Shown: positions 15,879-64,000, counted from the first letter of the stretch. The stretch is DNA of 64,000 bases from Acidobacteria bacterium RIFCSPLOWO2_12_FULL_54_10 (GCA_001767075.1 MEKX01000067.1:383-64382); one strand, 5' to 3'. Made by a program: numbers and translations. The notes: generated by a model not told the origin, from the sequence alone.

Positions 15879-15929
15879 GGGAAATTAGGTGTCTACTGTA
15901 TCCGTTGCGTCTACCGATTCCTGACTATA

Positions 15930-17366: not shown

Positions 17367-17369
17367 TCT

Positions 17370-20107: not shown

Positions 20108-20276
20108 AGGGAGAGTATAGCATTACAATGGCATCGCTAGTCTAGGTCTGCATGTCTATTGAATTCACATTGACCCAATTCGATTTTAAGTATTAAATTG
20201 TTTCATGTTTTGATGATTTAGATGAATGCAAATCGCTGAAATGCTTTTATTAGAACATCGCTTCCGGAGGGAAAAC

Positions 20277-22178
20277 ATGTCAAAAAAAATTAGTGCGCTC
20301 TTTGCTCTAGTGTGTTGGATCGGACTTTCGGCCAACTCCTGGGCACAAGGATATCAAAGTCTTGAAATGGTTCTTTATAATGGCAAAATTGTAACGGTCG
20401 ATGACCATAGCTACACGTCAAATATAGGAACCATTGCTCAAGCAATCCACATCAAAGACGGCAAAGTATTGCATGTTGGAACCAACGACCAGATTCGCCC
20501 AATGGCTGGAGCCGGGGTCAAGTCGGTCGATCTGAAGGGAAAGACTGTTATTCCAGGAATGATTCTTACGCATGAACATCCTTATGACTGGAATCCAGTA
20601 GAACCCTGGCCCGTGAAAGCAGTTTTGGGTAAAGATGACAAGGTCATAGTTCGATTTTTGGAAGGCAGCCCGGAAGAAAATATCCAAGCATTTCCTAAAA
20701 CTTTAACTGAAACTGTGGCCAAGTCTAAGCCTGGTCAATGGATCTACATCGTATTTACCTTCGGCAAGAATTATGAATGGTCCACTGGCGGCAACATTGG
20801 CATGGGTCGGGGAGGCATGGATTCCAAAGTATTTAATATCATCCTCGAGAAAAGAATCACCAAAGAGATGCTGGACGCTGCCGCACCCAATAATCCGATT
20901 CTTCTCCGGGATGTTTTCACCACCATGATGTTTAATCAGAAAGGATTGGATGAAAGCAGGAAAATTTTCCCCGAGAAAGACATCAATACCATAAAAGATG
21001 CAGATGGCATCGGCGGAGCCAACGAAATGCGCTGGGCTTTTTCGGATGTAGTCATGCATGACCGAATGGCGGATTTACAAGAAATCATCCGTTTAGGGCA
21101 TGAATGGTGGGCCGGATACGGAATGTCGGGGTATTCTTCCAACACATATGCGCCATCAACGCACAAAGTTTATGGTGATCTTGAAGCGAGAGGACTGATG
21201 TCCTTGCGCGTGGCTTGGACTTGGAATTGGCGTGCGGGCTATTATTACCCGGATGAATATTTTCTGTACGACTTGGCAAACAGGCTGGGTAAAGGTACAG
21301 ATTATTATTGGAATGCAGGTGGCAGAAATGGCGCAGGCGGGAATTGCACCACAGCAGTACCGCTCAAGCCGCAACCAATTGTGCGAGCCGCAGGCGGTGG
21401 TGAACTAGCCGGTTGCACGTATGAGCCCGGCTCCAGGAATGCCCTATTGCTTTATGACTGGATTAAAGCGGGAAATCGATATGCCGGAGCTCACCATGGC
21501 GGAGACAAAGATGTCGATTACGTCATGGATATCATCGAAAAAGCCAGTAAAGATGCTGGCATGACGATTGAGCAAATACGGGCAAAACGCCATTCGGTTG
21601 ACCATAGCGGGATGTTCCCTCGTCCGGATCAAGTAACGCGCATGAAAAATCTCAATTTGGCTGCCGACGGCAATGCGTTTGAGATTTTCCAAGCTGCGCC
21701 AGCCGTGTTTGAAACCTATGGTGAAAGAGCTGTTGGTTGGGTCGTTCCCAAAAAGCGGCTGAATGAAGCGCAGATTCTTAATTCATTTGAGATGGATCGT
21801 GCTTTAGGATCAACGGTACTTACATTCTTTGACGGTCTCACTTGGTTTCAGAATCGAAAATCCTGGGACGGCAAAGTCTATGGCGCGGACCAAGCGATAG
21901 ATCGTGCGACGACGCTAAAGGTCGCTACTTACCGCGGAGCTGAATTCTCACTGAAGGAGAATCAGTGGGGTTCTCTCGAACCAGGGAAATGGGCCGACCT
22001 GCTCGTATTGGATAAAGATTTCCTTGCCTCGTCCATCGATGACTTCCAAAAAACCAGAGTACTCATGACAGTTTCTGGCGGCCGAATTATTCATTTGGTT
22101 CCATCTTTAGCCCGCGAGATTGGAGTGCAGCCAGCAGGCGCTATGGTGACTTTGAACGGCCCGGCGGCTCAATGGTAA
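20277..22178 (+). CDS. secreted amidohydrolase-3 family metal-dependent hydrolase (paralogue 6 of the family at 54-64 kb)
   Basis: ATG at 20277 preceded by GGAGG. Signal peptide ALFALVCWIGLSANSWAQ. HxH metal motif PGMILTHEHP and C-terminal NAFEIF.../DLLVLDKDF blocks shared with the tandem copies. Confidence 0.75.
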   Translation: MSKKISALFALVCWIGLSANSWAQGYQSLEMVLYNGKIVTVDDHSYTSNIGTIAQAIHIKDGKVLHVGTNDQIRPMAGAGVKSVDLKGKTVIPGMILTHEHPYDWNPVEPWPVKAVLGKDDKVIVRFLEGSPEENIQAFPKTLTETVAKSKPGQWIYIVFTFGKNYEWSTGGNIGMGRGGMDSKVFNIILEKRITKEMLDAAAPNNPILLRDVFTTMMFNQKGLDESRKIFPEKDINTIKDADGIGGANEMRWAFSDVVMHDRMADLQEIIRLGHEWWAGYGMSGYSSNTYAPSTHKVYGDLEARGLMSLRVAWTWNWRAGYYYPDEYFLYDLANRLGKGTDYYWNAGGRNGAGGNCTTAVPLKPQPIVRAAGGGELAGCTYEPGSRNALLLYDWIKAGNRYAGAHHGGDKDVDYVMDIIEKASKDAGMTIEQIRAKRHSVDHSGMFPRPDQVTRMKNLNLAADGNAFEIFQAAPAVFETYGERAVGWVVPKKRLNEAQILNSFEMDRALGSTVLTFFDGLTWFQNRKSWDGKVYGADQAIDRATTLKVATYRGAEFSLKENQWGSLEPGKWADLLVLDKDFLASSIDDFQKTRVLMTVSGGRIIHLVPSLAREIGVQPAGAMVTLNGPAAQW

Positions 22179-51558: not shown

Positions 51559-51631
51559 CGAATCTTCACCTGATTCCTTTGCATTAGCTTCCCTATGCTA
51601 CAATTTTGCATTATCGGTCGTCGAGTATCTT

Positions 51632-53929
51632 ATGAAAATCCTTCACCGGCAGTTTCTCAAAGAAGTCGCAGCTCACGGACTGCTGGGACTCATACTTTTT
51701 ACTTCTGTTCTTTTTCTGCGGGACACCACTCGCTTGTTGGAATTGCTTTTGCGTGAAACCGCCGTATGGCAGGACTTGGTTTCGCTGTTGCTGATGGCAT
51801 TCCCTCCTTTATTGACCTTTACGGTCCCGGTAGCTGTTGTTGTGGGTTTGGCGGTGACGCTCAGCCGCATGGCGAGTAATAATGAAATCACCGCGATGCG
51901 CGCCTGCGGTTTAGGTGTCAGGAGCTTAGCCCTGCCTGTCAGTATCGTCATAACCATCGGTTGCATCTCCGGAGTCATTCTTTCGGTGTGGCTTGCTCCA
52001 TTAGCAAGTCAAAAGAGAGTAGAGGTCGAACGGCGCATTGGCCTCCGCCAGATTCCCTTGCGGTTGCAGCCGCGGGTCTTTGAAGAGAATTTCCCAAACT
52101 ATATTCTCTACGTTCGCGACGTCACTAGCGGTTCGAATCCTCTTTGGAAGGGCATTTTTCTAGCCGATGTCTCAAATCCTCAAAAACCCAAGGTGATTCT
52201 GGCAAATGATGGATATCTTCTCAGCAATCCTGAGGAGAACAGATTTCAGCTTCATTTATTGAATGGAAGCAGTCACGAGATCGGCGGATCGCCGGACGAA
52301 TATTCTATCGTCACATTTTCGGAGATGGATTTACCCGTCAACATTCCGCCACCGCAAGTTCCATCCGTGAAACCTATCGGACGAAGGGCTACTCCAGAAC
52401 TTCACGCAGTGTCACCCAATGCCCCGGATTGGCTGGATGCAAACATTGAATTCCACCGGCGTTTTGCGCTCCCCATCGCGGCGCTTTCTCTCGCCTTAGT
52501 CGCAATTTCCTTCAGCCTCTTTTCCATTCGGGGTGGAAAATCTTCCGGCATGGTGCTGACCGTTCTGATGGTCCTGGTCTATTACACGATTTTCACCGGC
52601 GGCATCAGCATGGCTCGCCAGCAAGTGGTCCCTCCTTGGATTGGGGTTTGGGGCGCAAATTTCCTGTTCGGCTTGCTCGGCATCATTTTATTAATGCGCG
52701 CTGACCGCATAAACTTCTCGATGGATTGGTACGAACGAATTGCCAACCTTCCCGCTACTGCATCCGCATACTTTTATCGCATATATCGGCGCGATCCCCT
52801 GTCTGTCCAAACTCTGCCTCACTTCCGGCCAAACATTCGGCGAACACTGGACCGCTATGTGGCGAAAAGTTTTCTTGCCTATCTGGCTATCATCCTTTCA
52901 GCCCTCGTTTTGCTGACCGAGATCGTTACTTTCTTTTTGGACTTACTGAATGACGTGTTGAAAAATCAAATTCCCGCCAGCATGGTTTTCAGCTACTTCT
53001 TCCATCTGACGCCTTATCTCATTTATGCAACCATGCCATTGGCCGTGCTGGTAGCGGTCCTGGTCAGTATCGGCATCCTGAATCAGCGCAACGAAATCGT
53101 TGCCGCAAAAGCTTCGGGTATCAGCGTGTACCGCTTGGCTATGCCCATTTTTGTTCTTGCCGCTGGTCTTGGATCATTGCTTTTTCTGTTTGAGCATTTC
53201 TATGTGCCGTCCGCGAATCGAGTCCAGGACGCGATTCGAAACCGCATCAAAGGCAGGCCTGCTCAAACCTATTTGCGCCCAGACCAACGATGGATCATGG
53301 GTGAAGATTCCAGAATTTATTATTCCAATTTTTTCGCGCCAGAGGAAAACGTTATGGGTGGGGTCACGGTCTTTGAGATGGACCGGGAGAATTTTTCTCT
53401 TACTCGCCTCATATCAGCCTCCAGAGCAACTTGGGAGCCTTCTTTGTCTGGATGGATTTTCCAGTCAGGCTGGGTCCGGGAATTTGACCAAAACGCAGTG
53501 GTCCATTTCAATGATTTCCGCGTACAGCTTTTTCAGGACTTGCACGAGCCTCCTTCGTATTTCCTCAAGGAAGTCAAACAGTCCATCCAGATGAATTTTA
53601 TAGAGCTTGGGCGTTACATCCAGGAACTTCGCCAAAGTGGGTTTGATGTCACTTCACTCTCCGTGCAGTTTCACAAGAAGTTTTCCTTCCCTGCTTTTAC
53701 GCTGATCATGGCCTTGATCGGTTTGCCATTTGCTGTTTCCAACGAGAGAAAGGGCGCCGTTACTGGCGTTGCCGTTGCTTTGGGCATCGCTTTAGTTTAT
53801 TGGGGCGCCAGCAGTCTTGCCGAGGCTTTGGGAAATCTGAACGAACTGCCCCCGGTTTTAGCCGCATGGTCACCAAATCTTCTTTTTGGCCTCGGCGGAA
53901 TTTATCTATTCTTAAAGATTAAAACTTAA
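51632..53929 (+). CDS. fused LptF-LptG-like permease (YjgP/YjgQ family duplicated)
   Basis: Two consecutive LptF/LptG-like modules, each with N-terminal TM helices, a periplasmic beta-jellyroll region and C-terminal TM helices. Second module starts near YRRDPLSVQ...RYVAKSFLAYL. ATG at 51632 chosen to avoid overlap with the convergent gene. Confidence 0.7.
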   Translation: MKILHRQFLKEVAAHGLLGLILFTSVLFLRDTTRLLELLLRETAVWQDLVSLLLMAFPPLLTFTVPVAVVVGLAVTLSRMASNNEITAMRACGLGVRSLALPVSIVITIGCISGVILSVWLAPLASQKRVEVERRIGLRQIPLRLQPRVFEENFPNYILYVRDVTSGSNPLWKGIFLADVSNPQKPKVILANDGYLLSNPEENRFQLHLLNGSSHEIGGSPDEYSIVTFSEMDLPVNIPPPQVPSVKPIGRRATPELHAVSPNAPDWLDANIEFHRRFALPIAALSLALVAISFSLFSIRGGKSSGMVLTVLMVLVYYTIFTGGISMARQQVVPPWIGVWGANFLFGLLGIILLMRADRINFSMDWYERIANLPATASAYFYRIYRRDPLSVQTLPHFRPNIRRTLDRYVAKSFLAYLAIILSALVLLTEIVTFFLDLLNDVLKNQIPASMVFSYFFHLTPYLIYATMPLAVLVAVLVSIGILNQRNEIVAAKASGISVYRLAMPIFVLAAGLGSLLFLFEHFYVPSANRVQDAIRNRIKGRPAQTYLRPDQRWIMGEDSRIYYSNFFAPEENVMGGVTVFEMDRENFSLTRLISASRATWEPSLSGWIFQSGWVREFDQNAVVHFNDFRVQLFQDLHEPPSYFLKEVKQSIQMNFIELGRYIQELRQSGFDVTSLSVQFHKKFSFPAFTLIMALIGLPFAVSNERKGAVTGVAVALGIALVYWGASSLAEALGNLNELPPVLAAWSPNLLFGLGGIYLFLKIKT

Positions 53930-54018
53930 TTCACTTCCAGTGGTTGACCATCATCGACAAAAAATGGGAGCCTCTTGCGAAGCTCCCTTATCCAGCAATC
54001 GTTGCTTTGACGTAGTGC

Positions 54019-55920
54019 TCAGTATTGCGGTGATTTGTAAACCGTCTTGCCTCCCAGCGATGTCAGAAGCGTCTTGATCGTCTTGATCTGGTCTGACGGA
54101 ATCGTGAAGTAGTCCTTGTCGATCACGATAAAGTCGGCCAGTTTCCCGACCTCCAGCGACCCGATGTTCTTTTCATTAAACAACTGCTCGGCGCCCCAGA
54201 TCGTTGCCGCTTTCATCAAGTCGGTGCGGTCCATGGATTCGCGCACATTGTACGTCAATCCATCGTGCGGCATCTTTCGGCTTACAAAGAACTCGATGAA
54301 GCCCCAGATGTTCCCATCCCACTGCTCTGGATAGTCCATATCCTTCGCGTAGTATGCCACTTTGTTCAAATGAGCATCGGTATTGAATACCGGGTGCCCG
54401 CCGGCATCCTGGTAGCTCTTCATCGGCGCCATCCAGGTCATCACCTGTTCCCCGTAAACCTTCAGGAACTCGCCGCCCTTGATGTTGCCCTGCACTTGGT
54501 ATCCATTAAATGCCGGCATCACGCCGTAATCGGCCAATCGCTTGATATGATCCGGACGAATGATCGGGTTGTGCTCCGTGCCGATGCGCAGCTCCCGCAC
54601 CTGTGCCACGGTCATTCTGCCGCTTTTCACTTCCTCATCCAGCAATTTCAACAAGGAGTCGTAGGTGCCATCACTGTACGTATGCAGAAAGCTCAGTCTC
54701 AGGCCCGATTGAATGGCTGATTTGACCTGTTCGAAACCCGCTGCTGCATTGTAATCGGTTGGCTGAGCGTTGCAATCCCGGCGAATTCCACTCGGTGCGT
54801 TCGGGTTGATCGGCTTTGATGTCGTGCAGGTTAAGCCAGATTCCCAACCTTCGTTGGAAACACCAGCGTTCCAAATGTAGTCATTGCCAATGCCTCTGAA
54901 ATCGCCTACATTTCGGTAAAAGAACGCTAACCCCCCGCCTGGTTGATTTACTTCCGGCTGATTACCCCACAGCGTTCCCAGGTACCAGCCCCAGCGGACC
55001 GGCATCTCGCCGCTCTGATAGAGCAGATTGTAGGTCTTCATGATGGATGGCGACCCGTAATAGTGATTCCCGAACGTGGTCACGCCTTGCGCCGATACGC
55101 ATTCCAGAAGTTCACGCTTCAGGAAGTCAACTTTTTCCGTCTCGCGTCCTTTCATCAGGATGTCGAAGACCGTCGCTGTGCGCGCCGTCAACCCCGCCGC
55201 TTCCCAACCCAATATTTTCAGGAACTCGTCTTTCGCTTTCGTATTGTGTGCTTCCGGGCCGATGGCTTCGCTGCTGAATACCAGCAACGGATTATTCGGC
55301 GAAAGGGTGTCCAGATATTCGCGTGTTATCGTTCCGCTGCTCCCGTCCTGCTGGCGAAACAGCGCATGGACGATCTTCCGTGATTCCGGCAGTGTTTTGC
55401 CGCCGAATACCGATGCCCAAATCCATTTGCCTGGCCCCATTTGCGCAGCCCGGTCGCGAACCCCTTTTTCCAGGTTCCTCAATACCTCAGCCTGCTCGGT
55501 GCCTAACGCATAAGTGATCTTCAGTTGCGGATCGTTATATCGCTTGGAGGTTGCCTCGCCTTCCGATCCCAGCCAGTGTTCCACTGCCCACAGATGCGGA
55601 TGCGTGTGCCCGTCAATCAATCCGGGCAGAACAATGCGCCCTTTCGCATCTACTACTTCCGTATTCGGTCCTGCTAAAAATCGCATTTCATCGTTCGTTC
55701 CACGGGCGATAATGCGATTATTTTTCACCGCAAATGCTTGCACTTGCGTGTTGCTGTTGTCCATGGTGTGAACTCGCCCATTCACCACAACCAGTTCCGG
55801 ATACGCTTTCAGTAAATCCAGCTTTCTTGTCGCATCGTCTTGCGCTTGCAGCAGCACTGGCATCAGTAAAGCAAACATCGCCCAAGCCGCTTGATATAAT
55901 TTCCAATTCTTTCTTATCAT
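54019..55920 (-). CDS. secreted amidohydrolase-3 family hydrolase, tandem paralogue 1
   Basis: Start MIRKNWK preceded by AAGGGGG. Signal peptide ...LLMPVLLQAQ. HxH PGLIDGHTHPHLW. C-terminal NTDAHL and GKLADFIVIDKDYFTIP blocks. Confidence 0.8.
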   Translation of the reverse strand: MIRKNWKLYQAAWAMFALLMPVLLQAQDDATRKLDLLKAYPELVVVNGRVHTMDNSNTQVQAFAVKNNRIIARGTNDEMRFLAGPNTEVVDAKGRIVLPGLIDGHTHPHLWAVEHWLGSEGEATSKRYNDPQLKITYALGTEQAEVLRNLEKGVRDRAAQMGPGKWIWASVFGGKTLPESRKIVHALFRQQDGSSGTITREYLDTLSPNNPLLVFSSEAIGPEAHNTKAKDEFLKILGWEAAGLTARTATVFDILMKGRETEKVDFLKRELLECVSAQGVTTFGNHYYGSPSIMKTYNLLYQSGEMPVRWGWYLGTLWGNQPEVNQPGGGLAFFYRNVGDFRGIGNDYIWNAGVSNEGWESGLTCTTSKPINPNAPSGIRRDCNAQPTDYNAAAGFEQVKSAIQSGLRLSFLHTYSDGTYDSLLKLLDEEVKSGRMTVAQVRELRIGTEHNPIIRPDHIKRLADYGVMPAFNGYQVQGNIKGGEFLKVYGEQVMTWMAPMKSYQDAGGHPVFNTDAHLNKVAYYAKDMDYPEQWDGNIWGFIEFFVSRKMPHDGLTYNVRESMDRTDLMKAATIWGAEQLFNEKNIGSLEVGKLADFIVIDKDYFTIPSDQIKTIKTLLTSLGGKTVYKSPQY

Positions 55921-56015
55921 CTGCGCCCCCTTATATAAATTCCTGAAATGCTTAGGGCAGAATGACCGTTGTGAATTCGGCATTCTGCCCTAAGAAATTA
56001 ATTAAAAGCTAACTC

Positions 56016-57941
56016 CTAATAAGCAGCATCCTTGTAGACCGTCTTGCCTCCCACGGATGTGAGCAGCGTTTTGATGGTTTTGATCTGATCGCCAGGAATC
56101 GTGAAGTAATCCTTGTCGATCACGATAAAGTCGGCGAGTTTCCCGACTTCCAGCGACCCGATGTTCTTTTCGTTCAAGAGCTGCTCGGCGCCCCAGATCG
56201 TCGCGGCCTTCATCAGGTCCGTGCGATCCATGGCTTCGTCGCGGTTGTAGTAAAGCCCGTCGTTGGGCATTCTGCGTGTAACGAAAAACTCGATGAACCC
56301 CCAGATATTGCCATTCCATTCTTCTGGATAGTCCATGTCCTTTGCGAAATAAGGCACCTTGCCCAGATGCGCATCCGTATTAAAGACCGGCTTGCCGCCG
56401 TCTTTCAGGTAGGTCTTCATCGGAGCCATCCAGGTCATCACCTGTTCCCCGTAGACTTTCAGGAATTCTCCGCCCTTGATGTCGCCCTGCACCTGATATC
56501 CATTGAATGCCGGCATCATGTTGTAATCCGCCATCCTCTTGAGCTGGTCAGGCCGGATCATGGGGTTGTGTTCGGTACCGATCCGCAAAGCGCGAATCTG
56601 GTCCTTGGTAACCTTGCCGCCAGCCACTGCATCGTCGAGAAGCTTCAGGAGCGAATCGTATGTCCCGTCACTGTAAGTGTGCAGGAAGCTGATGCGCAAA
56701 CCATTTTCCACGGCAGCTTTCACATTTTGATAACCGCCTGCCTTCTCATATTCCGTCGGCTGACTGCCGCAATCGCGCCGCACTCCGCTTTGTGCATTCG
56801 GGTTGATTGGTTTGACCGTCGTGCAGGAAAGTCCCGACTCCCAGGCTTCATTCGACACGCCTGCATTCCAAATGTAATCATTGCCGATGCCCCGGAAATC
56901 GCCCACGTTGCGGTAGAAAAAGTTCAGGTCGCCGCTGTCGTTGCCTGTCGTGTTTATACCAGCTTCCAGTTGGTTGCCCCACAGCGTTCCCAGGAACCAC
57001 GCCCACCGTACCGGCAATTCATTGCGGGACACGAGCAAGTTGTACGTCTTCATGATGGAGGGCGAGCCGTAGTAATGGTTCCCGAAAGTGGTTACGCCCT
57101 GCGGCACCACGCACTCCAGCAGTTCCCGCTTCAGGAAATCCACTTTGTCGTTGTCCCTGCCCTTCAGCAGAATGTCGTATAGAAGAGACGTCCGGGTGGT
57201 TAATCCTGCAGCTTCGTACCCTATCATGCGGATGAATTCGTCCTTTGCCCTGGTGTTGTGCACTTCCGGACCAATTGCCTCGCTGCTGTGCATCAGCATC
57301 GGGTTATTCGGAGCTATCGTATCCAGATACTGCCGCGTCAGAGTGCCGGACTGCCCTCCCGCTTGTTGAAACAGCGGGTAAGTCATTTTGCGTGACTCAG
57401 GAATGTTTTTGCCTCCGAAAGCCGTCACCCAAATCCATTTGCCTGGTCCCACGGCCTGAATTCTCTCCCGTGCCACGCGCTCTATATTTCGCAGAACTTC
57501 TGTGGGGTCGTTGCCCATCGCATATCCAATCTGCAATTGCGGATCGTTGTACCGCTTGGCTGTCGCGTCGCCCACGCCGCCCAGCCAGTGCTCCACGGCC
57601 CACAGGTGCGGGTGCGTATGGCCATCAATTAGCCCCGGCAGCACGATCCGTCCCTTGGCGTCGACCACTTCTGTCTTCGGTCCCGCCAAGAATCGCATCT
57701 CATCGTTTGTTCCGCGGGCGATAATGCGATTGTTTTTTACCGCAAATGCCTGCACCTGCGTATTGCTGTTGTCCATCGTGTGAATGCGCCCGTTCACTAC
57801 AATCAATTCTGGATAAGCATTCAGCAGTTCCAGCTTTCTCGCTGCATCCTGCTGTGCTGCCATCCTCCCCGGCAACGCTAGTACAACCAGCGCCACCACC
57901 AGGGCAAAACGCCAAATCATATTCCGATACCTGCTATGCAT
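56016..57941 (-). CDS. secreted amidohydrolase-3 family hydrolase, tandem paralogue 2
   Basis: Start MHSRYRN preceded by AAGGAGGAAATC. ~80-90% identical to paralogue 1 over long stretches. Confidence 0.8.
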   Translation of the reverse strand: MHSRYRNMIWRFALVVALVVLALPGRMAAQQDAARKLELLNAYPELIVVNGRIHTMDNSNTQVQAFAVKNNRIIARGTNDEMRFLAGPKTEVVDAKGRIVLPGLIDGHTHPHLWAVEHWLGGVGDATAKRYNDPQLQIGYAMGNDPTEVLRNIERVARERIQAVGPGKWIWVTAFGGKNIPESRKMTYPLFQQAGGQSGTLTRQYLDTIAPNNPMLMHSSEAIGPEVHNTRAKDEFIRMIGYEAAGLTTRTSLLYDILLKGRDNDKVDFLKRELLECVVPQGVTTFGNHYYGSPSIMKTYNLLVSRNELPVRWAWFLGTLWGNQLEAGINTTGNDSGDLNFFYRNVGDFRGIGNDYIWNAGVSNEAWESGLSCTTVKPINPNAQSGVRRDCGSQPTEYEKAGGYQNVKAAVENGLRISFLHTYSDGTYDSLLKLLDDAVAGGKVTKDQIRALRIGTEHNPMIRPDQLKRMADYNMMPAFNGYQVQGDIKGGEFLKVYGEQVMTWMAPMKTYLKDGGKPVFNTDAHLGKVPYFAKDMDYPEEWNGNIWGFIEFFVTRRMPNDGLYYNRDEAMDRTDLMKAATIWGAEQLLNEKNIGSLEVGKLADFIVIDKDYFTIPGDQIKTIKTLLTSVGGKTVYKDAAY

Positions 57942-58023
57942 GATTTCCTCCTTATGATTTTCCGTGCGGGAAGCCGCAAATTTCAATTTGCTATTCCCGC
58001 ATATTAACTTGTTCCGAAACTAT

Positions 58024-59955
58024 TTAGAAGTTCGCGTCTTTGTACATGACTTTGCCGCCGACCGCCGTCAGTATCGTTTTGATGCTTCCAATATCGTCAG
58101 CGGGAATCGTGAAATAATCTTTATCGATGACGATAAAGTCAGCCAGTTTCCCGACTTCCAGCGAGCCGATGTTCTTCTCATTCATGGCCCCTTCCGCTCC
58201 CCAGATCGTTGCCGACTTCATCAACCGTTCCTTGTCCAATGCTTCGCCCCTCGCATAGGTAATGCCGTCATGCGGCATCGTCCGGGTTGCGAAGAACTCC
58301 ATGAACCCCCAGATGGTGCCGTCCCATTGCTCTGGATAGTCCATGTCTTTGTAGTGCACCGGGATGTTCTTGCCCAGATGCGCATCGGTATTGAAAACTA
58401 CGCGCACTCCGGCATCGGCCATGGATTTCATCGGTGCCATCCAGTTCATATATTGCTCGCCGTAGGACTTCAGAAATGCGCCGCCCTTGATGTCTCCTTG
58501 CACCTGATAACCATTAAAGGCAGGCATGACGTTGTACTTCGCGAAATCGGCAAATTGATTGGGCCGGATGATCGGGTTGTGCTCCGTGCTGACCCGCAGC
58601 GCGCGAATCTCTTCCAGCGTCATTCTGCCGGATGTCACTTCATCACTTAGCATTTTAAACAATGCATCGTAAGTTCCGTCGCTATAGCCGTGCATGAAGG
58701 CGATTCTCAAACCGCTTTGCAGTCCGGCTTTCACGCTCTTGTAGCCTGTTTTCTCATCATAGTTGATTGCCGCTTTTGCGCAATCCAGTCTTACGCCGTC
58801 TGCTACGCTCCGTCCAGTTCCTTGCGCTGCCACATTCGGCAGAGGCGTGGCTGTCGTGCAGGTCAGTCCCCCTTCCCAGCCTTCGTTGGTGATTCCTGCG
58901 TTCCAGAAATAATCGCCGCCTATGCCGCGGAAGTCTCCGGTCTCTTGGCTGAACGCGCGGATGATGGCATCGGTAATTTCAGGTTTATCCTTGTCGTATT
59001 TACTCACTATGTTCCCAGCGCCGGGCACATAGTATGCGAAACGCACCGGCATGTCGTCATTCTGATGCAGCACATTGAACGCCTTCGTAATTAACGTGGA
59101 GCGGTCGAATCGGTCGCCGAACGTCGTGACGCCCGCCTCGGCGATGCATTCCAGCATTTCCTGCTTCAGAATTTCCGCTTGCTCTTTCCACCGTCCGCGC
59201 ATCAGGATTTCAAACGGGATCACCGTCCGGGCAATAATGCCGGTCGCCTCGTAACCGACAATCCGGTCCATCTCCTGCTTCGCCTTCGTGTTGTTCTGTG
59301 ATGGTCCGATCGCTTCGGTCGCGATCAGCGATACCGGATTGTTCGGCGCCAGCGCATCCAAAAACTGCGTGGTAATCGGCGCTGAGCTGCCCAGCGACGC
59401 AAACAACGGACTGGCAATCCTGCGCGATTCCGGAATGCTCTTGCCTCCGAATACCTTCATCATGATCCATTTGCCAGGGCCCATTTCCTGCGCGCGATTG
59501 CGGATGCCTTGTTCGATAGACCGCAGAACCTCCGCTTCGGTGTTCCCTAGCGCCGCAGTATATTTCAATTGCGGGTCGTTATATTTCTTCGAGGTGGCTT
59601 CTCCTTCGGCTCCGAACCAGTGCTCCGATCCCCACAGATAAGGATGCGTATGCCCGTCGATCAAGCCGGGCAGCACGGCCCGCCCCTTGGCGTCGATCAC
59701 CTGGGTTTGCGGACCAGCCAGGAAACGGATTTCGTCGTTGGTTCCCAGCGCCAGGATGCGGTTGCTGCGCACGGCCATGGCCTGCACCTGCCTCATCTGC
59801 CCGTCAATCGTGTAAATCTTGCCGTTCACGACAATCACTTCTGGATATGCTTTCAGTAGTTCCAGCTTTCTGTTCGCGTCCTGGCTGTATCCGGCAGTCG
59901 CAACAATAACCAACAGCGCAAACAGCAGGCTTGTGTGTCTAATATTGCCTTTCAT
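58024..59955 (-). CDS. secreted amidohydrolase-3 family hydrolase, tandem paralogue 3
   Basis: Signal peptide LLFALLVIVATAGYSQ. HxH PGLIDGHTHPYLW. SD GAGGGAGAG upstream. Confidence 0.8.
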   Translation of the reverse strand: MKGNIRHTSLLFALLVIVATAGYSQDANRKLELLKAYPEVIVVNGKIYTIDGQMRQVQAMAVRSNRILALGTNDEIRFLAGPQTQVIDAKGRAVLPGLIDGHTHPYLWGSEHWFGAEGEATSKKYNDPQLKYTAALGNTEAEVLRSIEQGIRNRAQEMGPGKWIMMKVFGGKSIPESRRIASPLFASLGSSAPITTQFLDALAPNNPVSLIATEAIGPSQNNTKAKQEMDRIVGYEATGIIARTVIPFEILMRGRWKEQAEILKQEMLECIAEAGVTTFGDRFDRSTLITKAFNVLHQNDDMPVRFAYYVPGAGNIVSKYDKDKPEITDAIIRAFSQETGDFRGIGGDYFWNAGITNEGWEGGLTCTTATPLPNVAAQGTGRSVADGVRLDCAKAAINYDEKTGYKSVKAGLQSGLRIAFMHGYSDGTYDALFKMLSDEVTSGRMTLEEIRALRVSTEHNPIIRPNQFADFAKYNVMPAFNGYQVQGDIKGGAFLKSYGEQYMNWMAPMKSMADAGVRVVFNTDAHLGKNIPVHYKDMDYPEQWDGTIWGFMEFFATRTMPHDGITYARGEALDKERLMKSATIWGAEGAMNEKNIGSLEVGKLADFIVIDKDYFTIPADDIGSIKTILTAVGGKVMYKDANF

Positions 59956-60039
59956 ATTTTCTCTCCCTCTTTTCTCATGAAAACATTTTTGCCAGCGTCA
60001 AACGCTGGTTTCTACAAACGCTATGACTTTGAAATGCTC

Positions 60040-61977
60040 CTAGTAGCTTGGATCGCGGTATGTTTCCTTGCCACCCACCACGGTCAGCAGCGCGCGAACC
60101 GTGCCGATTTGATCGTCGGGTGTGGCAAAGTAATCCTTGTTCATAACAATAAAATCGCCTAGTTTGCCGATTTCCAGCGAGCCGATGTTTTTCTCGTTCA
60201 ACAATTGTTCGGCGCCCCAGATGGTTGCGGCTTTGATCAGCGTCACCTTGTCAATCGCTTCGTTCTTGGAATAGATGACCCCGCTGCTGGGCATCACTCG
60301 CGAAGCAAAAAATTGCATAAACGCCCAGATGTTGCCGTCCCACTGCTTGTCATAGTCCATGTCTTTCCACTGCGGCGGAATGTTGCGTCCCAGGTGCGCA
60401 TCCGTGTTGAACACCACGTGCACGCCCGCGTTGGCCAGCGACTTCACCGGCAGCATCCAGCCCATGTATTGTTCGCCGTACGCTTTCAGGAATGCCCCGC
60501 CCTTGATGTCCCCTTGTATCTGGTAACCATTGACGGACGGGTATAGATTGTATTTCCCGAAGCTGGCAGCCTGGTCCGGACGGATGATGGGATTGTGCTC
60601 CGTGCTGATGCGCAGGGCGCGGATCTGCTCCAACGTCATTTTGCCGCTGGTAACCAGCCCATCCAGCATGTTGAATATGGCGTCGTAAGTGCCGTCGCTA
60701 TAGCCGTGCAGGAAACCTATACGCAGTCCATTTTCGACTCCTGCCTTTACCGCCGCATAGCCCTTCTTTTCCTCGTAGGCAATCGCTTTCGCGCAATCCG
60801 GTTGTATGCCGTCGGCGACGCTCCAATCCCCTTGCTCCGCCTTGACGGCAGAGTTCGGCAGAATGGTCGCCTTAGTGCAACTCAATCCGCCTTCCCAGCC
60901 TTCGTTGGCGACCCCGGCGTTCCAGATGTAATCGTTGCCGATGCCGCGAATATCGATCATCTCCTGATTCAGCAGCCGGATGATCACGTCGTTGTAAGCT
61001 GTGTTATTGAATTTGCTGGTGGTGTTCGACCCACCCTCGGAGAAATACGCATGGCGGATGGGCATATCGTTTTTCTGATAGAGCAGGTTGTAAGCCTTCA
61101 ACACCGCAGGCGACCGGTCGTAGCGGTCTCCGTAAGTCGTCACCCCCTGGTAGGACAGGCACTCCAGTATTTCCCTCTTCAGCATATCGGCCATGTCTTC
61201 CCAGCGGTCTCTTAAAAGAATCTCGAAAGGAACCACCGTCCGCGCGAAAATCCCAGTGGCCACATAGCCCAAGCGATCCTGCATGATTTTCTTCGCCATC
61301 GAGTTGCTCTCGGTTTGTCCGATGGCTTCGGTGGCGTAAAGTTGTACCGGATTATTGGGAGCAATCACATCGAGAAACTGTACCGTCAGCGGCCCTTTGG
61401 GGCCATCGGATGCGAACAGCCCTTGCATGATCCTCCGCGATTCCGGCAATGTGTTGCCGCCGAACAATTTGGCGACGATCCACTTGCCCGGTCCCATCTC
61501 CTGCGCTCGCTGCCTCAGAGTCTGCTCCAGCGCCCTCAATAACTCCGCGTGATTGTTCCCCCTCACCGAGCTCCACTTCATCTGCGGATCGTTGTAGCGT
61601 TTCGATGTAGCTTCGCCTTCTGCCCCCATCCAGTGCTCCGCGCCCCACAGGTTCGGATGTGTATGCCCGTCGATCAGCCCGGGCAGCACATGGCGGCCTT
61701 TGGCGTCGATCACCCGGGTATTCGGCCCTGCCAGGCTCTGGATGTCTGCTGTTTTTCCGATTGCGACAATTCTCTCGCTGCGGATCGCCAGCGCTTCGGC
61801 CTCGCTCATCGAAGCGTCGATGGTATGGATCTTGCCGTTCACCAGAATCACATCCGGGTAAGCACGGAGCATTTCCAGCTTGCGATTCGCGTCGGTGATC
61901 TGTGCACTCCCCGAAGCGATTGCAATAACTAAGGCTATTGCGAACATGAAGCACCTAATTATGGATCGATTGCGCAT
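60040..61977 (-). CDS. secreted amidohydrolase-3 family hydrolase, tandem paralogue 4
   Basis: Signal peptide FMFAIALVIAIASGSAQ. HxH PGLIDGHTHPNLW. SD AGGAGG upstream. Confidence 0.8.
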   Translation of the reverse strand: MRNRSIIRCFMFAIALVIAIASGSAQITDANRKLEMLRAYPDVILVNGKIHTIDASMSEAEALAIRSERIVAIGKTADIQSLAGPNTRVIDAKGRHVLPGLIDGHTHPNLWGAEHWMGAEGEATSKRYNDPQMKWSSVRGNNHAELLRALEQTLRQRAQEMGPGKWIVAKLFGGNTLPESRRIMQGLFASDGPKGPLTVQFLDVIAPNNPVQLYATEAIGQTESNSMAKKIMQDRLGYVATGIFARTVVPFEILLRDRWEDMADMLKREILECLSYQGVTTYGDRYDRSPAVLKAYNLLYQKNDMPIRHAYFSEGGSNTTSKFNNTAYNDVIIRLLNQEMIDIRGIGNDYIWNAGVANEGWEGGLSCTKATILPNSAVKAEQGDWSVADGIQPDCAKAIAYEEKKGYAAVKAGVENGLRIGFLHGYSDGTYDAIFNMLDGLVTSGKMTLEQIRALRISTEHNPIIRPDQAASFGKYNLYPSVNGYQIQGDIKGGAFLKAYGEQYMGWMLPVKSLANAGVHVVFNTDAHLGRNIPPQWKDMDYDKQWDGNIWAFMQFFASRVMPSSGVIYSKNEAIDKVTLIKAATIWGAEQLLNEKNIGSLEIGKLGDFIVMNKDYFATPDDQIGTVRALLTVVGGKETYRDPSY

Positions 61978-62051
61978 CTTTCCTCCTCATCTTTTGAATA
62001 CAAGTCTGTGGCTTTCTGCTGTTGAGTCTTACTGCTAATAATTCGGTTTAA

Positions 62052-62123
62052 TTCAAAAAGTAAAAAAGGCTGCACTCAGTCGTTTCCCGTCACCATTGCT
62101 TCAGGAAATTTCTCGTGCAGCCT
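62052..62123 (-). terminator. rho-independent terminator candidate downstream of paralogue 5
   Basis: On the minus strand: stem AGGCTGCAC/GTGCAGCCT (62067-62075 / 62115-62123) enclosing a 39-nt loop, followed by TTTTTACTTTTTG. Confidence 0.35.
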
Positions 62124-62140
62124 GTCATTGCTTCTCTTTC

Positions 62141-64000
62141 CTAGTACGCCGAATCCTTAAAGACCACCTTGCCGCCGGTTGCGGTTAACAGAGTCTTAAT
62201 GGTCTTGATCTGGTCTTCTTGGATTGTAAAGAAGTCCTTGTCGAGAACGATAAAGTCAGCCAGCTTACCGACCTCCAGCGAACCGATATTTTTCTCGTTC
62301 AGAATCTGCTCGGCTGCCCAGATCGTAGCTGCCCTCATCATGTTCACTCGATCCATGGCTTCACTTCGGTTATAAGTAATTCCGTCATGCGGCATTTTGC
62401 GCGTCACAAAGAACTCGATGAAGCCCCAGATGTTTCCGTCCCACTGCTCAGGATAATCCATATCCTTGGCATACACTGGGATGTTCTTGCTCAGGTGAGC
62501 GTCAGTGTTAAATACCGGATGCGCCCCTTTATCCATTAGGCTCTTCATCGGCGCCATCCAGGTCATGTACTGTTCGCCGAACGCCTTCAGGAAAGCGCCG
62601 CCCTTGATGTCTCCTTGCAACTGATAACCATTGAACGCCGGCATAATGTTGTACTTGGCGATCGTTTCCACTTGGTCCGGCCGGATCATCGGCGTGTGTT
62701 CCGTGCTGATGCGCAGCGCGCGAATCTGGTCAACGGTCATATTCCCTTTCTTGACCTGTTCATCGAGCAGATGGAACAGGGCATCGAAGGTCCCATCGCT
62801 ATAGTGATGCAGGAACCCAACCCGCAGGCCTGCCTCCACCGCAGCTTTCACCCTGGTATATCCAGTCTGCTCATCATACTTCGCCACCATTTCGTCTGAG
62901 CAGGATGTTTTCATGGCTCCATCCCGCAAAATCCGGGCGACCTTGGAAGTGGGCATCTTCACGTTGGTCTTTGGAACCTTCGTGCAGTTCAAACCACCTT
63001 CCCAGCCTTCATTCGCCACGCCGACGTTCCAAATAAAATCATTGCCGATGCCGCGGAAATCTCCCAGGTCGTTGTAAAACAGCTTAGCGAATTCGCGCTC
63101 TCGTGCTGGATCGCTAATCACATTTTCCGCCAGCCCGCCGCCAACCCACCAGCCCCAACGCACCGGCATTTCGCCGCGCTGGTAGAGGAGGTTAAATGTC
63201 TGCATGATGGAGGGTGAATTATAGTAGTGGTTCGAGAAGGTCGTGATGCCCTGCGCTGCCACGCATTCCAGCAGTTCTCGCTTCAGGAAGTCCGCCTTAT
63301 CATCCAATCGGCCTCGGAAAAGAATGTCATAGGTCACCGAGTTCCTGGCCGAAAGCCCCTGCACCTCGGTTCCCAGGTATTTCACCATCTCTTCTTTCGC
63401 CTTGGTGTTGTTCGCTGCGGGTCCGATCGCTTCGCTGGCCATCAGCATCAGCGGATTGTTCGGCGCCAGCGTATCCAGAAATTGCCGCGTCAGCGTGCTT
63501 GGTCGTCCGTCCTCGAACGTAAATAGCGGATACGTAATCTCGCGGGATTCCGGAATCGAGTTGCCGCCGAAAAGGCCCACCCAGATCCACTTGTTTGGTC
63601 CCAGTTCCTGCGCCCTCTCGCGGACCAGCCGCTCCGTATTCCGCAACACGGTCGCGCCGTCGTTGCCCCGCGCATAGACAATCTTCAATTGCGGATCGTT
63701 GTATCGTTTCGCCGTAATATCTCCCTCGGCTCCCAGGCGATGCTCTACGGCCCACAGATGCGGATGCGTGTGCCCATCGATCAGCCCGGGCAGCACGCGC
63801 CGCCCCTTGGCATCCAGCACTTCCGTCCTTGGCCCAGCCAGGAACCGCATTTCGTCGTTGGTTCCCAAAGCAATAATGCGGTTATTTTTCACCGCCAATG
63901 CCTGCACTTCCCGGTTGCTCGAATCAATCGTGGAGATTTTTCCATTCACCACGATCAGTTCCGGATAAGCTCCCAGCAGTTCCATCTTCCTGGTCAAGTC
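62141..64000 (-). CDS. secreted amidohydrolase-3 family hydrolase, tandem paralogue 5 (5' end beyond window)
   Basis: Homologous from the mature N-terminus (RKMELLGAYPELIVVNGK) onwards. The signal peptide/start must lie past position 64000. Confidence 0.75.
   Translation of the reverse strand, partial: DLTRKMELLGAYPELIVVNGKISTIDSSNREVQALAVKNNRIIALGTNDEMRFLAGPRTEVLDAKGRRVLPGLIDGHTHPHLWAVEHRLGAEGDITAKRYNDPQLKIVYARGNDGATVLRNTERLVRERAQELGPNKWIWVGLFGGNSIPESREITYPLFTFEDGRPSTLTRQFLDTLAPNNPLMLMASEAIGPAANNTKAKEEMVKYLGTEVQGLSARNSVTYDILFRGRLDDKADFLKRELLECVAAQGITTFSNHYYNSPSIMQTFNLLYQRGEMPVRWGWWVGGGLAENVISDPAREREFAKLFYNDLGDFRGIGNDFIWNVGVANEGWEGGLNCTKVPKTNVKMPTSKVARILRDGAMKTSCSDEMVAKYDEQTGYTRVKAAVEAGLRVGFLHHYSDGTFDALFHLLDEQVKKGNMTVDQIRALRISTEHTPMIRPDQVETIAKYNIMPAFNGYQLQGDIKGGAFLKAFGEQYMTWMAPMKSLMDKGAHPVFNTDAHLSKNIPVYAKDMDYPEQWDGNIWGFIEFFVTRKMPHDGITYNRSEAMDRVNMMRAATIWAAEQILNEKNIGSLEVGKLADFIVLDKDFFTIQEDQIKTIKTLLTATGGKVVFKDSAY

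What the first reader, a model, noticed from the sequence alone, without database searches (positions are those of the whole stretch)
54019..64000. Head-to-tail array of five ~650-aa secreted amidohydrolase paralogues
Five consecutive minus-strand genes, the last running off the window, encode signal-peptide-bearing amidohydrolase-3-like proteins. They share an N-terminal KLELLKAYPE..VVNGKI.T block, the HxH metal site GLIDGHTHP, NTDAHL and the C-terminal GKLADFIVIDKDYFTIP..QIKTIKTLLT..GGK.VYK. Each has its own strong Shine-Dalgarno (AGGAGG-like) and a short 32-163-bp spacer. Lineage-specific expansions like this usually mark substrate diversification, for example deacylation of varied N-acyl or amide compounds in soil. 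The substrates are unknown.
Basis: seen in the sequence. Interest (0 to 1): 0.6.

Follow-up and report, generated by a model that had tools for sequence, protein, structure and literature searches.

The report
Tandem array of exported amidohydrolase paralogues
Five neighbouring genes in a groundwater Acidobacteria genome encode old, diverged, still-functional copies of an exported metal-dependent amidohydrolase of unknown substrate; the array is real and mildly interesting, but it belongs to a known enzyme superfamily.

Summary
Five head-to-tail minus-strand genes (54019 to the window end) encode 633-649 aa proteins. All hit Pfam Amidohydro_3 at 100-119 bits and all carry Sec-type signal peptides. 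The window is from Acidobacteria bacterium RIFCSPLOWO2_12_FULL_54_10. Longer contigs show the array has exactly five genes, and three independent assemblies recover it. The copies are old: 59-72% nucleotide identity, saturated synonymous sites, dN/dS 0.09-0.21 and no gene-conversion tracts. c5, c4 and c3 have orthologues in the same order in another assembly. Only c1 and c2 are sister copies.

The catalytic HxH, two His and Asp are kept in all copies. The carboxylated lysine of canonical YtcJ-like enzymes is absent. A conserved Asn-Glu insertion and a Cys-Cys-flanked variable loop sit after that strand. One segment (residues 311-340) is conserved between orthologues but differs sharply between paralogues, which fits diverged specificity.

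The close family is narrow. It forms one 50%-identity cluster among 1.84 billion representatives, and all named members are Acidobacteria. It is multi-copy, with arrays of four to six genes in relatives. Substrates remain unknown. This is a new member of a known kind, of modest interest.

The parts
54019..55920 (-). c1, an exported Amidohydro_3 paralogue of 633 aa. The maximal ORF and the public gene call extend to 55983, giving 654 aa.
   Evidence: ORF. Pfam PF07969 at 103 bits. ATG at 55920 is preceded by AAGGGGG, whereas ATG 55983 lies inside a hairpin stem. Signal-peptide features. 75% amino-acid identity to c2.
56016..57941 (-). c2, an exported Amidohydro_3 paralogue of 641 aa. It is the sister copy of c1.
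   Evidence: ORF. Pfam at 116 bits. ATG at 57941 is preceded by AAGGAGG, and the public gene call is also 641 aa. It is sister to c1 in the NJ tree.
58024..59955 (-). c3, an exported Amidohydro_3 paralogue of 643 aa. It equals NCBI locus tag A3F68_13030. This is the copy that was modelled.
   Evidence: 100% match to P0001. AF2 model with pLDDT 92.5 and pTM 0.91. Best Foldseek PDB matches are 3igh and 3icj. An orthologue at 77% identity lies at the same array position in L089.
60040..61977 (-). c4, an exported Amidohydro_3 paralogue of 645 aa (A3F68_13035).
   Evidence: ORF. Pfam at 101 bits. GAGGAGG lies upstream. The orthologue P0004 is 82% identical and lies at the same array position in L089.
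62141..64000 (-). c5, the first gene of the array, cut by the window end. The full protein is 649 aa (L081:3734-5683).
   Evidence: The frame is open at the window end. The full gene and its upstream region come from longer contigs. TAGGAGGG lies upstream of the ATG. c5-type relatives are P0025 (72%) and P0035 (68%).
53956..53987 (-). Intrinsic-terminator-like hairpin plus T-run just after the c1 stop, between c1 and the convergent LptF/G gene.
   Evidence: The sequence GGGAGCTTCGCAAGAGGCTCCC followed by ATTTTTTG was found by the scan. The fold has z = -2.8.
62055..62123 (-). Long hairpin followed by a U-rich tract in the 163-bp c5-to-c4 spacer. It is a candidate (partial) terminator or RNA-stability element.
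   Evidence: Fold of -29.5 kcal/mol, z = -3.9, 0 of 200 shuffles as stable. The stem is followed by UUUUUUACUUUUU.
55953..55992 (-). Stable hairpin in the c2-to-c1 spacer with no U-run. It is a candidate intercistronic processing or stability element.
   Evidence: Fold of the spacer: -30.4 kcal/mol, z = -4.6, 0 of 200 shuffles as stable.
57965..58001 (-). Moderately stable hairpin in the c3-to-c2 spacer.
   Evidence: Fold z = -2.2, 7 of 200 shuffles as stable.
20226..22178 (+). Distant sixth paralogue of 650 aa, from a second, related subfamily. It is not part of the array.
   Evidence: tblastn 26% identity to c3. Pfam Amidohydro_3 at 94.6 bits. It keeps the HxH, His, His, Asp and Cys-Cys pair but lacks the Asn-Glu insertion.

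Best explanation
The array encodes five old, individually maintained paralogues of a Sec-exported, metal-dependent hydrolase of the amidohydrolase superfamily (Pfam Amidohydro_3, nearest to the YtcJ-like branch).

Each protein is a composite beta-sandwich plus a (beta/alpha)8 barrel. The ligand set is the HxH of strand 1, a His on strand 5, a His on strand 6 and an Asp on strand 8. This set should bind one or two divalent metal ions (probably Zn) that activate water to attack a carbonyl carbon.

The carboxylated lysine that bridges the two metals in canonical YtcJ-like enzymes has been replaced by Ala, Ser or Thr. Either the centre is mononuclear, or the conserved Glu of a family-specific Asn-Glu insertion at the end of strand 4 supplies the bridging carboxylate.

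My best guess for the reaction is hydrolysis of amide (C-N) bonds in small N-acylated or peptide-like compounds met in the periplasm or outside the cell. Each paralogue would take a different substrate range, set mainly by the strand-3 loop and helix (residues 311-340) and perhaps by the disulfide-stapled loop after strand 4. The products (amine or amino acid plus acid) would feed nitrogen and carbon scavenging.

Shown here: the gene structure, the age and constraint of the copies, family membership, conservation of the ligand residues, absence of the lysine, signal-peptide features, and synteny in a relative.

Inferred: metal stoichiometry, the role of Glu358, the disulfide, the reaction type, and the specificity differences.
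For: Family and fold:
- Pfam PF07969 over the full length in all five, 100-119 bits.
- AF2 model with pLDDT 92.5.
- Closest solved folds are the YtcJ-like Pyrococcus hydrolases 3igh and 3icj (E 4e-24, target-normalised TM 0.72), followed by TrzN, AtzA and HutI.
- A profile search of PDB gives the same top hits.

Catalytic residues (c3 numbering):
- H102, H422 and H459 are present in 95 of 95 close family members. H104 and D524 are present in 94 of 95.

Functional and old copies:
- dN/dS is 0.09-0.21 with pS about 0.69 (saturated). Identical-codon fractions show no conversion tracts.
- Three independent assemblies carry the same array.
- c5, c4 and c3 orthologues (68, 82 and 77% identity) lie in the same order in L089.

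Export:
- All five N-termini have tripartite signal-peptide features.
- C366 and C392 are each conserved in 94 of 95 members and are lost together in the single exception, P0038.

Diverged specificity:
- Segment 311-340 is 77-89% identical between orthologues (c4, c3 and c2 groups) but only 7-33% identical between paralogues. Whole-protein values are 71-84% against 53-64%.
- The catalytic motifs are near-invariant.

Precedents in the same Pfam family:
- Secreted, tandemly arranged metal-dependent bile salt hydrolases (PMC13081902).
- The N-epsilon-acyl-lysine acylase SmELA, classed as YtcJ-like (PMC10699109).

Context hints at uptake and N-compound use:
- TonB-dependent receptors next to family members.
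- An amino-acid permease.
- Asparaginase and creatininase.
Against: - No substrate was identified.
- No NCBIfam model comes near its cut-off. The best is 61 bits against 391.
- The closest solved structures are themselves uncharacterised and only about 15% identical.
- The canonical bridging lysine is missing, so the mechanism cannot simply be copied from YtcJ-like or metalloBSH enzymes.
- The related dist6-type subfamily lacks both the Lys and the Glu. This argues that Glu358 is not an obligatory metal ligand for the clade.
- Gene neighbourhoods differ from genome to genome and give no consistent pathway.
- The c5 orthologue group does not show the 311-340 conservation pattern (0.46-0.47).
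- The signal-peptide call is heuristic.
- There are no expression data.
Confidence: 0.55

Rival explanations
1. The proteins are mononuclear, subtype-III-like hydrolases (as in cytosine or adenosine deaminase, TrzN and AtzA). They would deaminate, dehalogenate or ring-open N-heterocycles or ureides rather than deacylate amides.
For: The strand-4 carboxylated lysine is absent, as in mononuclear members. TrzN, AtzA, imidazolonepropionase and adenosine-deaminase homologues are the next-best structural matches after 3igh and 3icj. One family member sits in a cluster with a xanthine-dehydrogenase-family molybdoenzyme, NicX, a CN_hydrolase and Amidohydro_2, which resembles N-heterocycle catabolism. 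Another lies near creatininase and asparaginase.
Against: The YtcJ-like structures match clearly better than TrzN and AtzA (E 1e-24 against 1e-16; target-normalised TM 0.72 against 0.57). The strand-5 motif is H-x-Y-S-D, not the HxxE proton-shuttle motif of the deaminases. TRZ/ATZ and deaminase NCBIfam models score 35-40 bits against cut-offs of 350-700, and only over the N- and C-terminal sandwich. Export by a signal peptide is unusual for nucleobase deaminases (own knowledge).
Confidence: 0.15
2. The copies are functionally redundant, with the same substrate. They would be kept for dosage or for differential regulation, for example different promoters or RNA stability, rather than for different specificities.
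For: The catalytic and many surrounding motifs are nearly invariant across copies. Every spacer carries a hairpin, and the c5-to-c4 spacer has a terminator-like element, so expression could differ between copies.
Against: The copies are only 52-75% identical in protein sequence, with saturated synonymous divergence, yet each is under purifying selection. Separate orthologues of c3, c4 and c5 persist in another lineage in the same order. Segment 311-340 is subfamily-specific and conserved within orthologue groups. Long-term retention of distinct orthologue groups is the pattern expected for distinct functions.
Confidence: 0.15
3. The enzymes hydrolyse bonds other than C-N, for example lactones or phospho- and carboxyl-esters, as some amidohydrolase-superfamily members do.
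For: The superfamily includes lactonases and phosphotriesterases, some of which have a Glu in place of the carboxylated Lys (own knowledge of Seibert and Raushel's subtype II). The family has a conserved Glu358 at the end of strand 4.
Against: The listed characterised PF07969 members act mainly on C-N bonds. The exception is PhnM, a diphosphatase (list in PMC13081902). No phosphotriesterase or lactonase structure appears among the top 50 structural matches.
Confidence: 0.08
4. The array is an assembly artefact (an expanded or collapsed repeat), or the copies are decaying pseudo-enzymes.
For: None was found.
Against: Nucleotide identity between copies is only 59-72%, too low for repeat mis-assembly. 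An identical five-gene array appears in three independent assemblies from different samples. All ORFs are intact, the ligand residues are retained and dN/dS is 0.09-0.21.
Confidence: 0.02

Closest known systems
YtcJ-like metal-dependent hydrolases of Pyrococcus (PDB 3IGH, 3ICJ; function unknown)
   Same: They are the best sequence-profile and structural matches. They share the N- and C-terminal composite beta-sandwich plus the (beta/alpha)8 barrel. The HxH, strand-5 His (HAIGD against HxYSDG), strand-6 His (EHAS against EHNP), strand-8 Asp and the C-terminal GxLExGxxAD motif all align.
   Different: Identity is only about 15%. The window proteins are about 150 aa longer and carry a signal peptide. 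They lack the GVKLFxDG lysine, with Ala, Ser or Thr at that position. They have an Asn-Glu insertion and a Cys-Cys-flanked variable loop after strand 4.
Secreted metal-dependent bile salt hydrolases BwBSH1/2 of Bilophila wadsworthia (PF07969; bioRxiv 2026, PMC13081902)
   Same: They belong to the same Pfam family and have a Sec signal peptide. Two or three paralogues (about 51% identity) are arranged side by side. They hydrolyse an N-acyl amide bond outside the cytoplasm.
   Different: BwBSH is 945 aa with an extra C-terminal domain that matters for activity. It needs the carboxylated Lys373, and K373A is dead. Its genes lie next to a type II secretion system. The window proteins have none of these features.
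N-epsilon-acyl-L-lysine acylase SmELA of Streptomyces mobaraensis, and N-substituted formamide deformylase NfdA (YtcJ-like / PF07969 members with known substrates)
   Same: They are in the same superfamily branch as described in the literature (PMC10699109; PMC13081902). They hydrolyse an amide to a free amine plus an acid, which is the chemistry proposed here.
   Different: No structure is published for the epsilon-lysine acylases. No evidence links the Acidobacteria family to these substrates.
Triazine hydrolase TrzN and atrazine chlorohydrolase AtzA (mononuclear amidohydrolases)
   Same: They are second-tier structural matches. They have no carboxylated lysine, and the metal is held by HxH, His and Asp.
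   Different: Structural similarity is much weaker (target-normalised TM about 0.57). The HxxE motif is absent from the window proteins. NCBIfam TRZ/ATZ models score far below cut-off. TrzN and AtzA are cytoplasmic (own knowledge).

Membership tests
Pfam PF07969 Amidohydro_3 (amidohydrolase superfamily) | Full-length match to the family HMM above the gathering score | tested here: met
   99.6-118.8 bits against a cut-off of 29.7 for all five. The match covers profile positions 1-472 in four copies and 46-472 in c1.
Pfam PF07969 Amidohydro_3 (amidohydrolase superfamily) | (beta/alpha)8 barrel with a composite beta-sandwich formed by the N- and C-termini | tested here: met
   AF2 model with pLDDT 92.5 and pTM 0.91. 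Foldseek probability is 1.00 to 3igh, 3icj and many other amidohydrolases.
Pfam PF07969 Amidohydro_3 (amidohydrolase superfamily) | HxH at the end of strand 1, and Asp on strand 8 | tested here: met
   DGHTHP and NTDAH are invariant in the five copies. Among 95 close family members H102 is 95/95, H104 is 94/95 and D524 is 94/95.
Pfam PF07969 Amidohydro_3 (amidohydrolase superfamily) | His on strand 5 and His on strand 6 | tested here: met
   H422 (FLHxYSDG) and H459 (EHNP) are 95/95. They align to HAIGD and EHAS of 3igh.
YtcJ-like binuclear subgroup (cd01300/COG1574; subtype I centre) | Carboxylated lysine on strand 4 (G-V-K-x-x-x-D-G) bridging two metals | tested here: not met
   No Lys occurs anywhere in GIGNDYIWNAGV[AST]NEGWEGGL. 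HMMER aligns the 3igh Lys to position 356, which is Ala, Ser, Gly or Thr (residue counts). hhalign against 24 Lys-containing relatives aligns it to N357. More distant representatives that keep GVK place it at position 356.
YtcJ-like binuclear subgroup (cd01300/COG1574; subtype I centre) | Two metal ions per active site | not testable with these tools
   This needs metal analysis or a crystal structure.
D-aminoacylase / N-acyl-D-amino-acid deacylase (PF07969 members) | Cysteine metal ligand in the N-terminal part of the barrel (Cys96 in Alcaligenes D-aminoacylase; own knowledge), and detectable sequence relationship | tested here: not met
   The mature proteins have only three Cys (c3: 270, 366, 392). 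None lies in the strand following the HxH region. No D-aminoacylase chain is among the 60 best PDB profile hits or the 50 best structural hits.
Subtype III deaminase / TRZ-ATZ hydrolases | HxxE motif on strand 5, and a match to TRZ/ATZ or deaminase family models | tested here: not met
   Strand 5 reads H-[GTH]-Y-S-D. NCBIfam TRZ/ATZ, guanine deaminase and 5'-deoxyadenosine deaminase models score 30-40 bits against cut-offs of 350-700.
Metal-dependent bile salt hydrolases (metalloBSH) | Carboxylated Lys essential for activity, and an additional C-terminal domain (about 945 aa) | tested here: not met
   The Lys is absent. The proteins are 633-649 aa and end with the amidohydrolase sandwich. The features are as described in PMC13081902.
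Sec-exported proteins | N-terminal tripartite signal peptide with no Tat motif and no lipobox | tested here: met
   Net charge is +2 to +4 before a 10-residue hydrophobic core (mean Kyte-Doolittle 2.6-3.6). The c-regions end in A, S or G followed by Gln. There is no RR motif and no lipobox Cys. The rule is heuristic; SignalP was not available.
Any NCBIfam equivalog or subfamily with a named function | Score at or above the curated cut-off | tested here: not met
   The best hit is PRK08204 'hypothetical protein' at 46-61 bits against a cut-off of 391. All others are lower.

The most novel reading that the evidence does not exclude
The array belongs to an Acidobacteria-restricted, uncharacterised clade of exported PF07969 enzymes that has remodelled the active site. 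The carboxylated lysine is lost, a conserved Asn-Glu insertion has been gained at the end of strand 4, and a disulfide-stapled hypervariable loop follows.

On this reading the clade has been multiplied into batteries of 4-6 tandem genes, with at least 11 copies in this population. The batteries would act as a specificity-diversified toolkit for releasing nitrogen and carbon from amide-bound natural organic matter in the periplasm, possibly fed by TonB-dependent transporters.

If Glu358 proves to be the metal bridge, this would be a new active-site subtype within the YtcJ-like branch.
Probability: 0.3. Interest if true: 0.5.

Novelty: new member of a known kind. Interest (0 to 1): 0.33.

Why it matters
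Acidobacteria are abundant in soils and aquifers, but little is known about how they obtain organic nitrogen. This lineage keeps many diverged, exported amidohydrolases under purifying selection: at least five, four, one and one genes in this population, and arrays of six in relatives. That level of investment implies these enzymes matter for its way of life.

PF07969 is very large and mostly uncharacterised (PMC13081902). This clade offers a compact natural set of paralogues with one candidate specificity segment, residues 311-340. It also lacks the canonical lysine. It would therefore suit substrate-screening and structure-function work. Taken alone, the finding is an ordinary paralogue array in a known superfamily.

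Tried and rejected
- **Assembly artefact:** rejected. Nucleotide identity is 59-72% and three independent assemblies agree.
- **Recent gene conversion or concerted evolution:** rejected. This was tested to explain the near-identical N- and C-terminal blocks of c1 and c2. Identical-codon fractions in the 93-97% amino-acid-identical N-terminal block are 0.35-0.58, the same as background. Only the last C-terminal window is mildly raised, at 0.76.
- **Riboswitch or known RNA in or upstream of the array:** none. Only a tRNA lies upstream of c5, beyond the window.
- **Sigma-70 promoters:** the number of matches is below the shuffle expectation, so no promoter is claimed.
- **Named function by NCBIfam:** nothing reaches its cut-off.
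- **Close solved structure by sequence:** none. Only the terminal sandwich matches with a single sequence. A profile search was needed to reach 3igh and 3icj.
- **Literature on expansion of this family in Acidobacteria:** no papers found.
- **Consistent gene neighbourhood that would name a pathway:** not found. Contexts vary.
- **Conserved Lys490 (DIKGG) as a displaced carbamate lysine:** considered and rejected as unsupported. It lies after strand 7 and is not conserved in the nearest outgroups.
- **Cys270 as a metal ligand:** considered and rejected. It lies at the end of the helix that precedes strand 2, which would put it on the non-catalytic face of the barrel.

Full report
**Observation.** The region 54019-64000 holds five consecutive minus-strand ORFs. 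I call them c1 (54019-55983), c2 (56016-57986), c3 (58024-59955), c4 (60040-61977) and c5 (62141 to the window end). The c5 frame is still open at base 64000.

All five match Pfam PF07969 (Amidohydro_3) over essentially the whole profile, at 99.6-118.8 bits against a gathering score of 29.7. No NCBIfam model comes near its curated cut-off; the best is 61 bits against 391. Protein identities among the copies are 52-75%. A tblastn search of the whole window finds one further, distant paralogue (26% identity) at 20226-22178 on the plus strand.

**Gene starts, spacers and signals.**
- For c1 and c2 the maximal ORFs have no ribosome-binding site. The internal ATGs at 55920 and 57941 are preceded by AAGGGGG and AAGGAGG. 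The starts of c3, c4 and c5 are preceded by AGAGGGAG, GAGGAGG and TAGGAGGG.
- With these starts the proteins are 633, 641, 643, 645 and 649 aa, and the spacers are 95, 82, 84 and 163 bp.
- All five N-termini have the tripartite features of a Sec signal peptide. None has a twin-arginine motif or a lipobox. This is a heuristic rule, not SignalP.
- Three of the four spacers fold into a hairpin more stable than most shuffled sequences. The c5-to-c4 hairpin (z = -3.9) is followed by a U-rich tract and looks like a terminator. The c2-to-c1 hairpin (z = -4.6) has no U-tract. The c3-to-c2 hairpin is moderate (z = -2.2). The c4-to-c3 spacer is not distinguishable from shuffles (z = -0.7).
- A canonical terminator follows c1.
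- A hairpin also occupies the c4-like to c3-like spacer of a related array, without sequence conservation.
- Promoter-like matches are not above chance, so I make no claim about transcription units beyond these hints.
- Rfam finds nothing in the window, and only a tRNA upstream of c5 beyond the window.

**Source and reality of the array.** c3 is 100% identical to a protein of 'Acidobacteria bacterium RIFCSPLOWO2_12_FULL_54_10' (locus tag A3F68_13030; the taxon exists). Longer contigs from three independent assemblies carry the same locus. They show that the array has exactly five genes. It is bounded upstream by a roughly 640-bp gap, a tRNA and an RRM-protein gene, and downstream by a convergent LptF/G gene. 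Nucleotide identity between copies is only 59-72%. Mis-assembly is excluded.

**Age and selection.**
- Synonymous differences are saturated for every pair (pS 0.68-0.73), including c1 against c2. dN/dS is 0.09-0.21.
- The long blocks of near-identical protein sequence between c1 and c2 are not conversion tracts. Within them the fraction of identical codons among conserved residues is no higher than elsewhere.
- A neighbour-joining tree of 108 family members places c1 and c2 as sisters. It places c3, c4 and c5 with proteins from other assemblies.
- P0004 is 82% identical to c4, against 63% for c3 versus c4.
- On contig L089 the genes lie in the order c5-like (68%), c4-like (82%), c3-like (77%).
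- The array therefore predates the split of these lineages, and each gene has been kept separately. 'Lineage-specific' describes the family, not a recent burst at this locus.

**Family size and distribution.**
- Every named close homologue comes from Acidobacteria or Terriglobia metagenome bins.
- Among species-representative genomes, hits above about 50% identity come from two or three Acidobacteriota bins, one of which has at least six dispersed copies.
- An exhaustive HMMER scan of 1.84 billion 50%-identity representatives gives only 110 clusters at E <= 1e-30. The close family collapses into a single full-length representative.
- The family is nevertheless highly multi-copy. Proteins that NCBI assigns to this same bin lie on further contigs: a four-gene array holding two close-family and two dist6-type genes, and a singleton beside a TonB-dependent receptor.
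- Another Acidobacteria contig has six such genes in a row, five dist6-type followed by one c5-type, plus a seventh nearby.

**Structure and active site.** An AlphaFold2 model of c3 built from 45 homologues is confident (pLDDT 92.5, pTM 0.91). Its best PDB matches are the uncharacterised YtcJ-like hydrolases 3igh and 3icj (E about 1e-24, target-normalised TM 0.72, 15% identity). TrzN, AtzA and imidazolonepropionase follow. A profile search of PDB sequences agrees and gives a residue-level alignment.

From that alignment and the secondary structure I assign the barrel strands as follows:

| Strand | Residues (c3) | Key residues |
|---|---|---|
| 1 | 98-100 | HxH = H102, H104 |
| 2 | 276-282 | - |
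| 3 | 305-311 | - |
| 4 | 350-356 | - |
| 5 | 418-422 | H422 |
| 6 | 456-458 | H459 |
| 7 | 477-480 | - |
| 8 | 519-521 | D524 |

These five residues are present in 94-95 of 95 close family members.

The sixth canonical ligand is missing. This is the carboxylated lysine of the G-V-K-x-x-x-D-G motif on strand 4. The family reads W-N-A-G-V-[A/S/T]-N-E-G-W-E-G-G, with no lysine anywhere nearby.
- HMMER aligns the 3igh lysine to position 356.
- hhalign against 24 lysine-containing relatives aligns it to N357, with E358-G359 as an insertion.
- More distant representatives that retain G-V-K place it at position 356.
- Most of the roughly 100 related clusters also lack the lysine. The Asn-Glu insertion is confined to the close family and its nearest relatives.

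Glu358 (93 of 95) sits at the C-terminal end of strand 4, where a bridging ligand would be expected. The dist6-type subfamily has neither Lys nor Glu. The metal centre is therefore either mononuclear or Glu-bridged, and this remains open.

**Other conserved features.** Cys366 and Cys392 flank the most variable loop (371-391). Each is conserved in 94 of 95 members, including distant paralogues. They are lost together in the single exception. This is the pattern of a disulfide and fits export.

**Where the paralogues differ.** Variability concentrates in residues 131-140, 181-195, 211-255, 311-340 and 367-402. The catalytic motifs are nearly invariant. Segment 311-340 is the loop and helices after strand 3, which by barrel topology lies on the catalytic face. 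It is 77-89% identical between orthologues of c4, c3 and c2 but only 7-33% identical between paralogues. That contrast is far sharper than for the whole protein. This is the signature of subfamily-specific constraint and is the best available evidence for diverged specificity. The c5 group does not show it as clearly. The Cys-flanked loop varies even between orthologues.

**Function.** The shown facts support five exported, metal-dependent, functional hydrolases of the Amidohydro_3 family, long maintained as distinct genes. The reaction is inferred. Characterised PF07969 members mostly cleave C-N bonds: aminoacylases, formamide deformylase, imidazolonepropionase, AtzC and deaminases (PMC13081902). 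The YtcJ-like branch includes an N-epsilon-acyl-lysine acylase (PMC10699109). Secreted, tandemly arranged bile salt hydrolases are also PF07969 members, with 3icj among their closest structural homologues.

I therefore favour amide hydrolysis of small N-acylated or peptide-like compounds in the periplasm or outside the cell, with paralogue-specific substrate ranges (overall confidence 0.55). The main rivals are:
- deaminase- or dehalogenase-type chemistry, suggested by the missing lysine and by one N-heterocycle-like gene neighbourhood - 0.15;
- functional redundancy - 0.15;
- hydrolysis of bonds other than C-N - 0.08.

Gene neighbourhoods elsewhere are heterogeneous and give only weak hints of uptake-linked nitrogen scavenging. 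They include TonB-dependent receptors, an amino-acid permease, asparaginase and creatininase, and transposases.

**Verdict.** The array is a real, old and conserved set of exported amidohydrolase paralogues from a narrow, Acidobacteria-restricted and uncharacterised clade of a known superfamily, with a non-canonical lysine-less active-site arrangement. It is a new member of a known kind. Interest is modest (0.33). It would rise if the Glu-for-carbamate substitution or a defined substrate repertoire were demonstrated.

Noticed in passing
window 20226-22178 (+): A sixth Amidohydro_3 gene of 650 aa with its own signal-peptide-like N-terminus. It is only 26-28% identical to the array copies. It lacks the Asn-Glu insertion but keeps the HxH, His, His, Asp and Cys-Cys pair. 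Its subfamily forms its own tandem arrays elsewhere (five in a row on L092; two on L087).
   Followed up: partly
window 51458-53929 (+): A single long ORF (765 aa in the public gene call, 823 aa as the maximal ORF) that hits Pfam LptF_LptG. It appears to be a fused LptF-LptG lipopolysaccharide-export permease, convergent with c1.
   Followed up: no
L081 3023-3095 (-), about 730-800 bp beyond the window end: A tRNA gene (Rfam, 59.5 bits) lies upstream of c5, followed by an RRM-domain protein gene and a DUF4159 gene. About 640 bp of non-coding DNA separates the tRNA from the c5 start.
   Followed up: no
window 55921-56015, 57942-58023 and 61978-62140 (-); L089 5016-5102: Three of the four spacers of the array carry a hairpin more stable than most shuffles (z = -4.6, -2.2 and -3.9); the fourth, c4-to-c3 at 59956-60039, is not distinguishable from shuffles (z = -0.7). 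A related array also has a strong hairpin in the equivalent c4-like to c3-like spacer, without sequence conservation. These may be intercistronic terminators or RNA-stability elements.
   Followed up: partly
window 55921-55983 (-): The public gene call for c1 (654 aa) starts at an ATG that has no Shine-Dalgarno sequence and lies inside the stem of the spacer hairpin. The ATG at 55920, which has AAGGGGG upstream, is the more likely start (633 aa).
   Followed up: yes
L084 (contig ctg125572, 4.5 Mb), L088, L093, L090, L094: Family members elsewhere sit next to varied genes. These include a Mo-hydroxylase, NicX, CN_hydrolase, Amidohydro_2 and M20 cluster (L084); TonB-dependent receptors (L088, L093); an amino-acid permease (L090); and asparaginase and creatininase (L094). 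Small response-regulator genes lie just upstream in L085, L086 and L088.
   Followed up: partly
window 10376-11545 (+): A 389-aa ATPase with AAA_21 and AAA_15 domains, the kind found in some abortive-infection or defence systems. It lies next to a 220-aa ORF.
   Followed up: no
window 14460-19135 (-): An operon of an ABC ATPase, an ABC-2 permease, an ABC_transp_aux (GldG-like) protein and a DUF4340 protein. An aconitase-family gene follows at 12917-14329.
   Followed up: no
P0038 (family member on a 1.9-Mb contig): This is the only close family member lacking Cys366, and it also lacks Cys392. It also has a divergent DIKGG motif. It may be a copy that has changed location or function.
   Followed up: no
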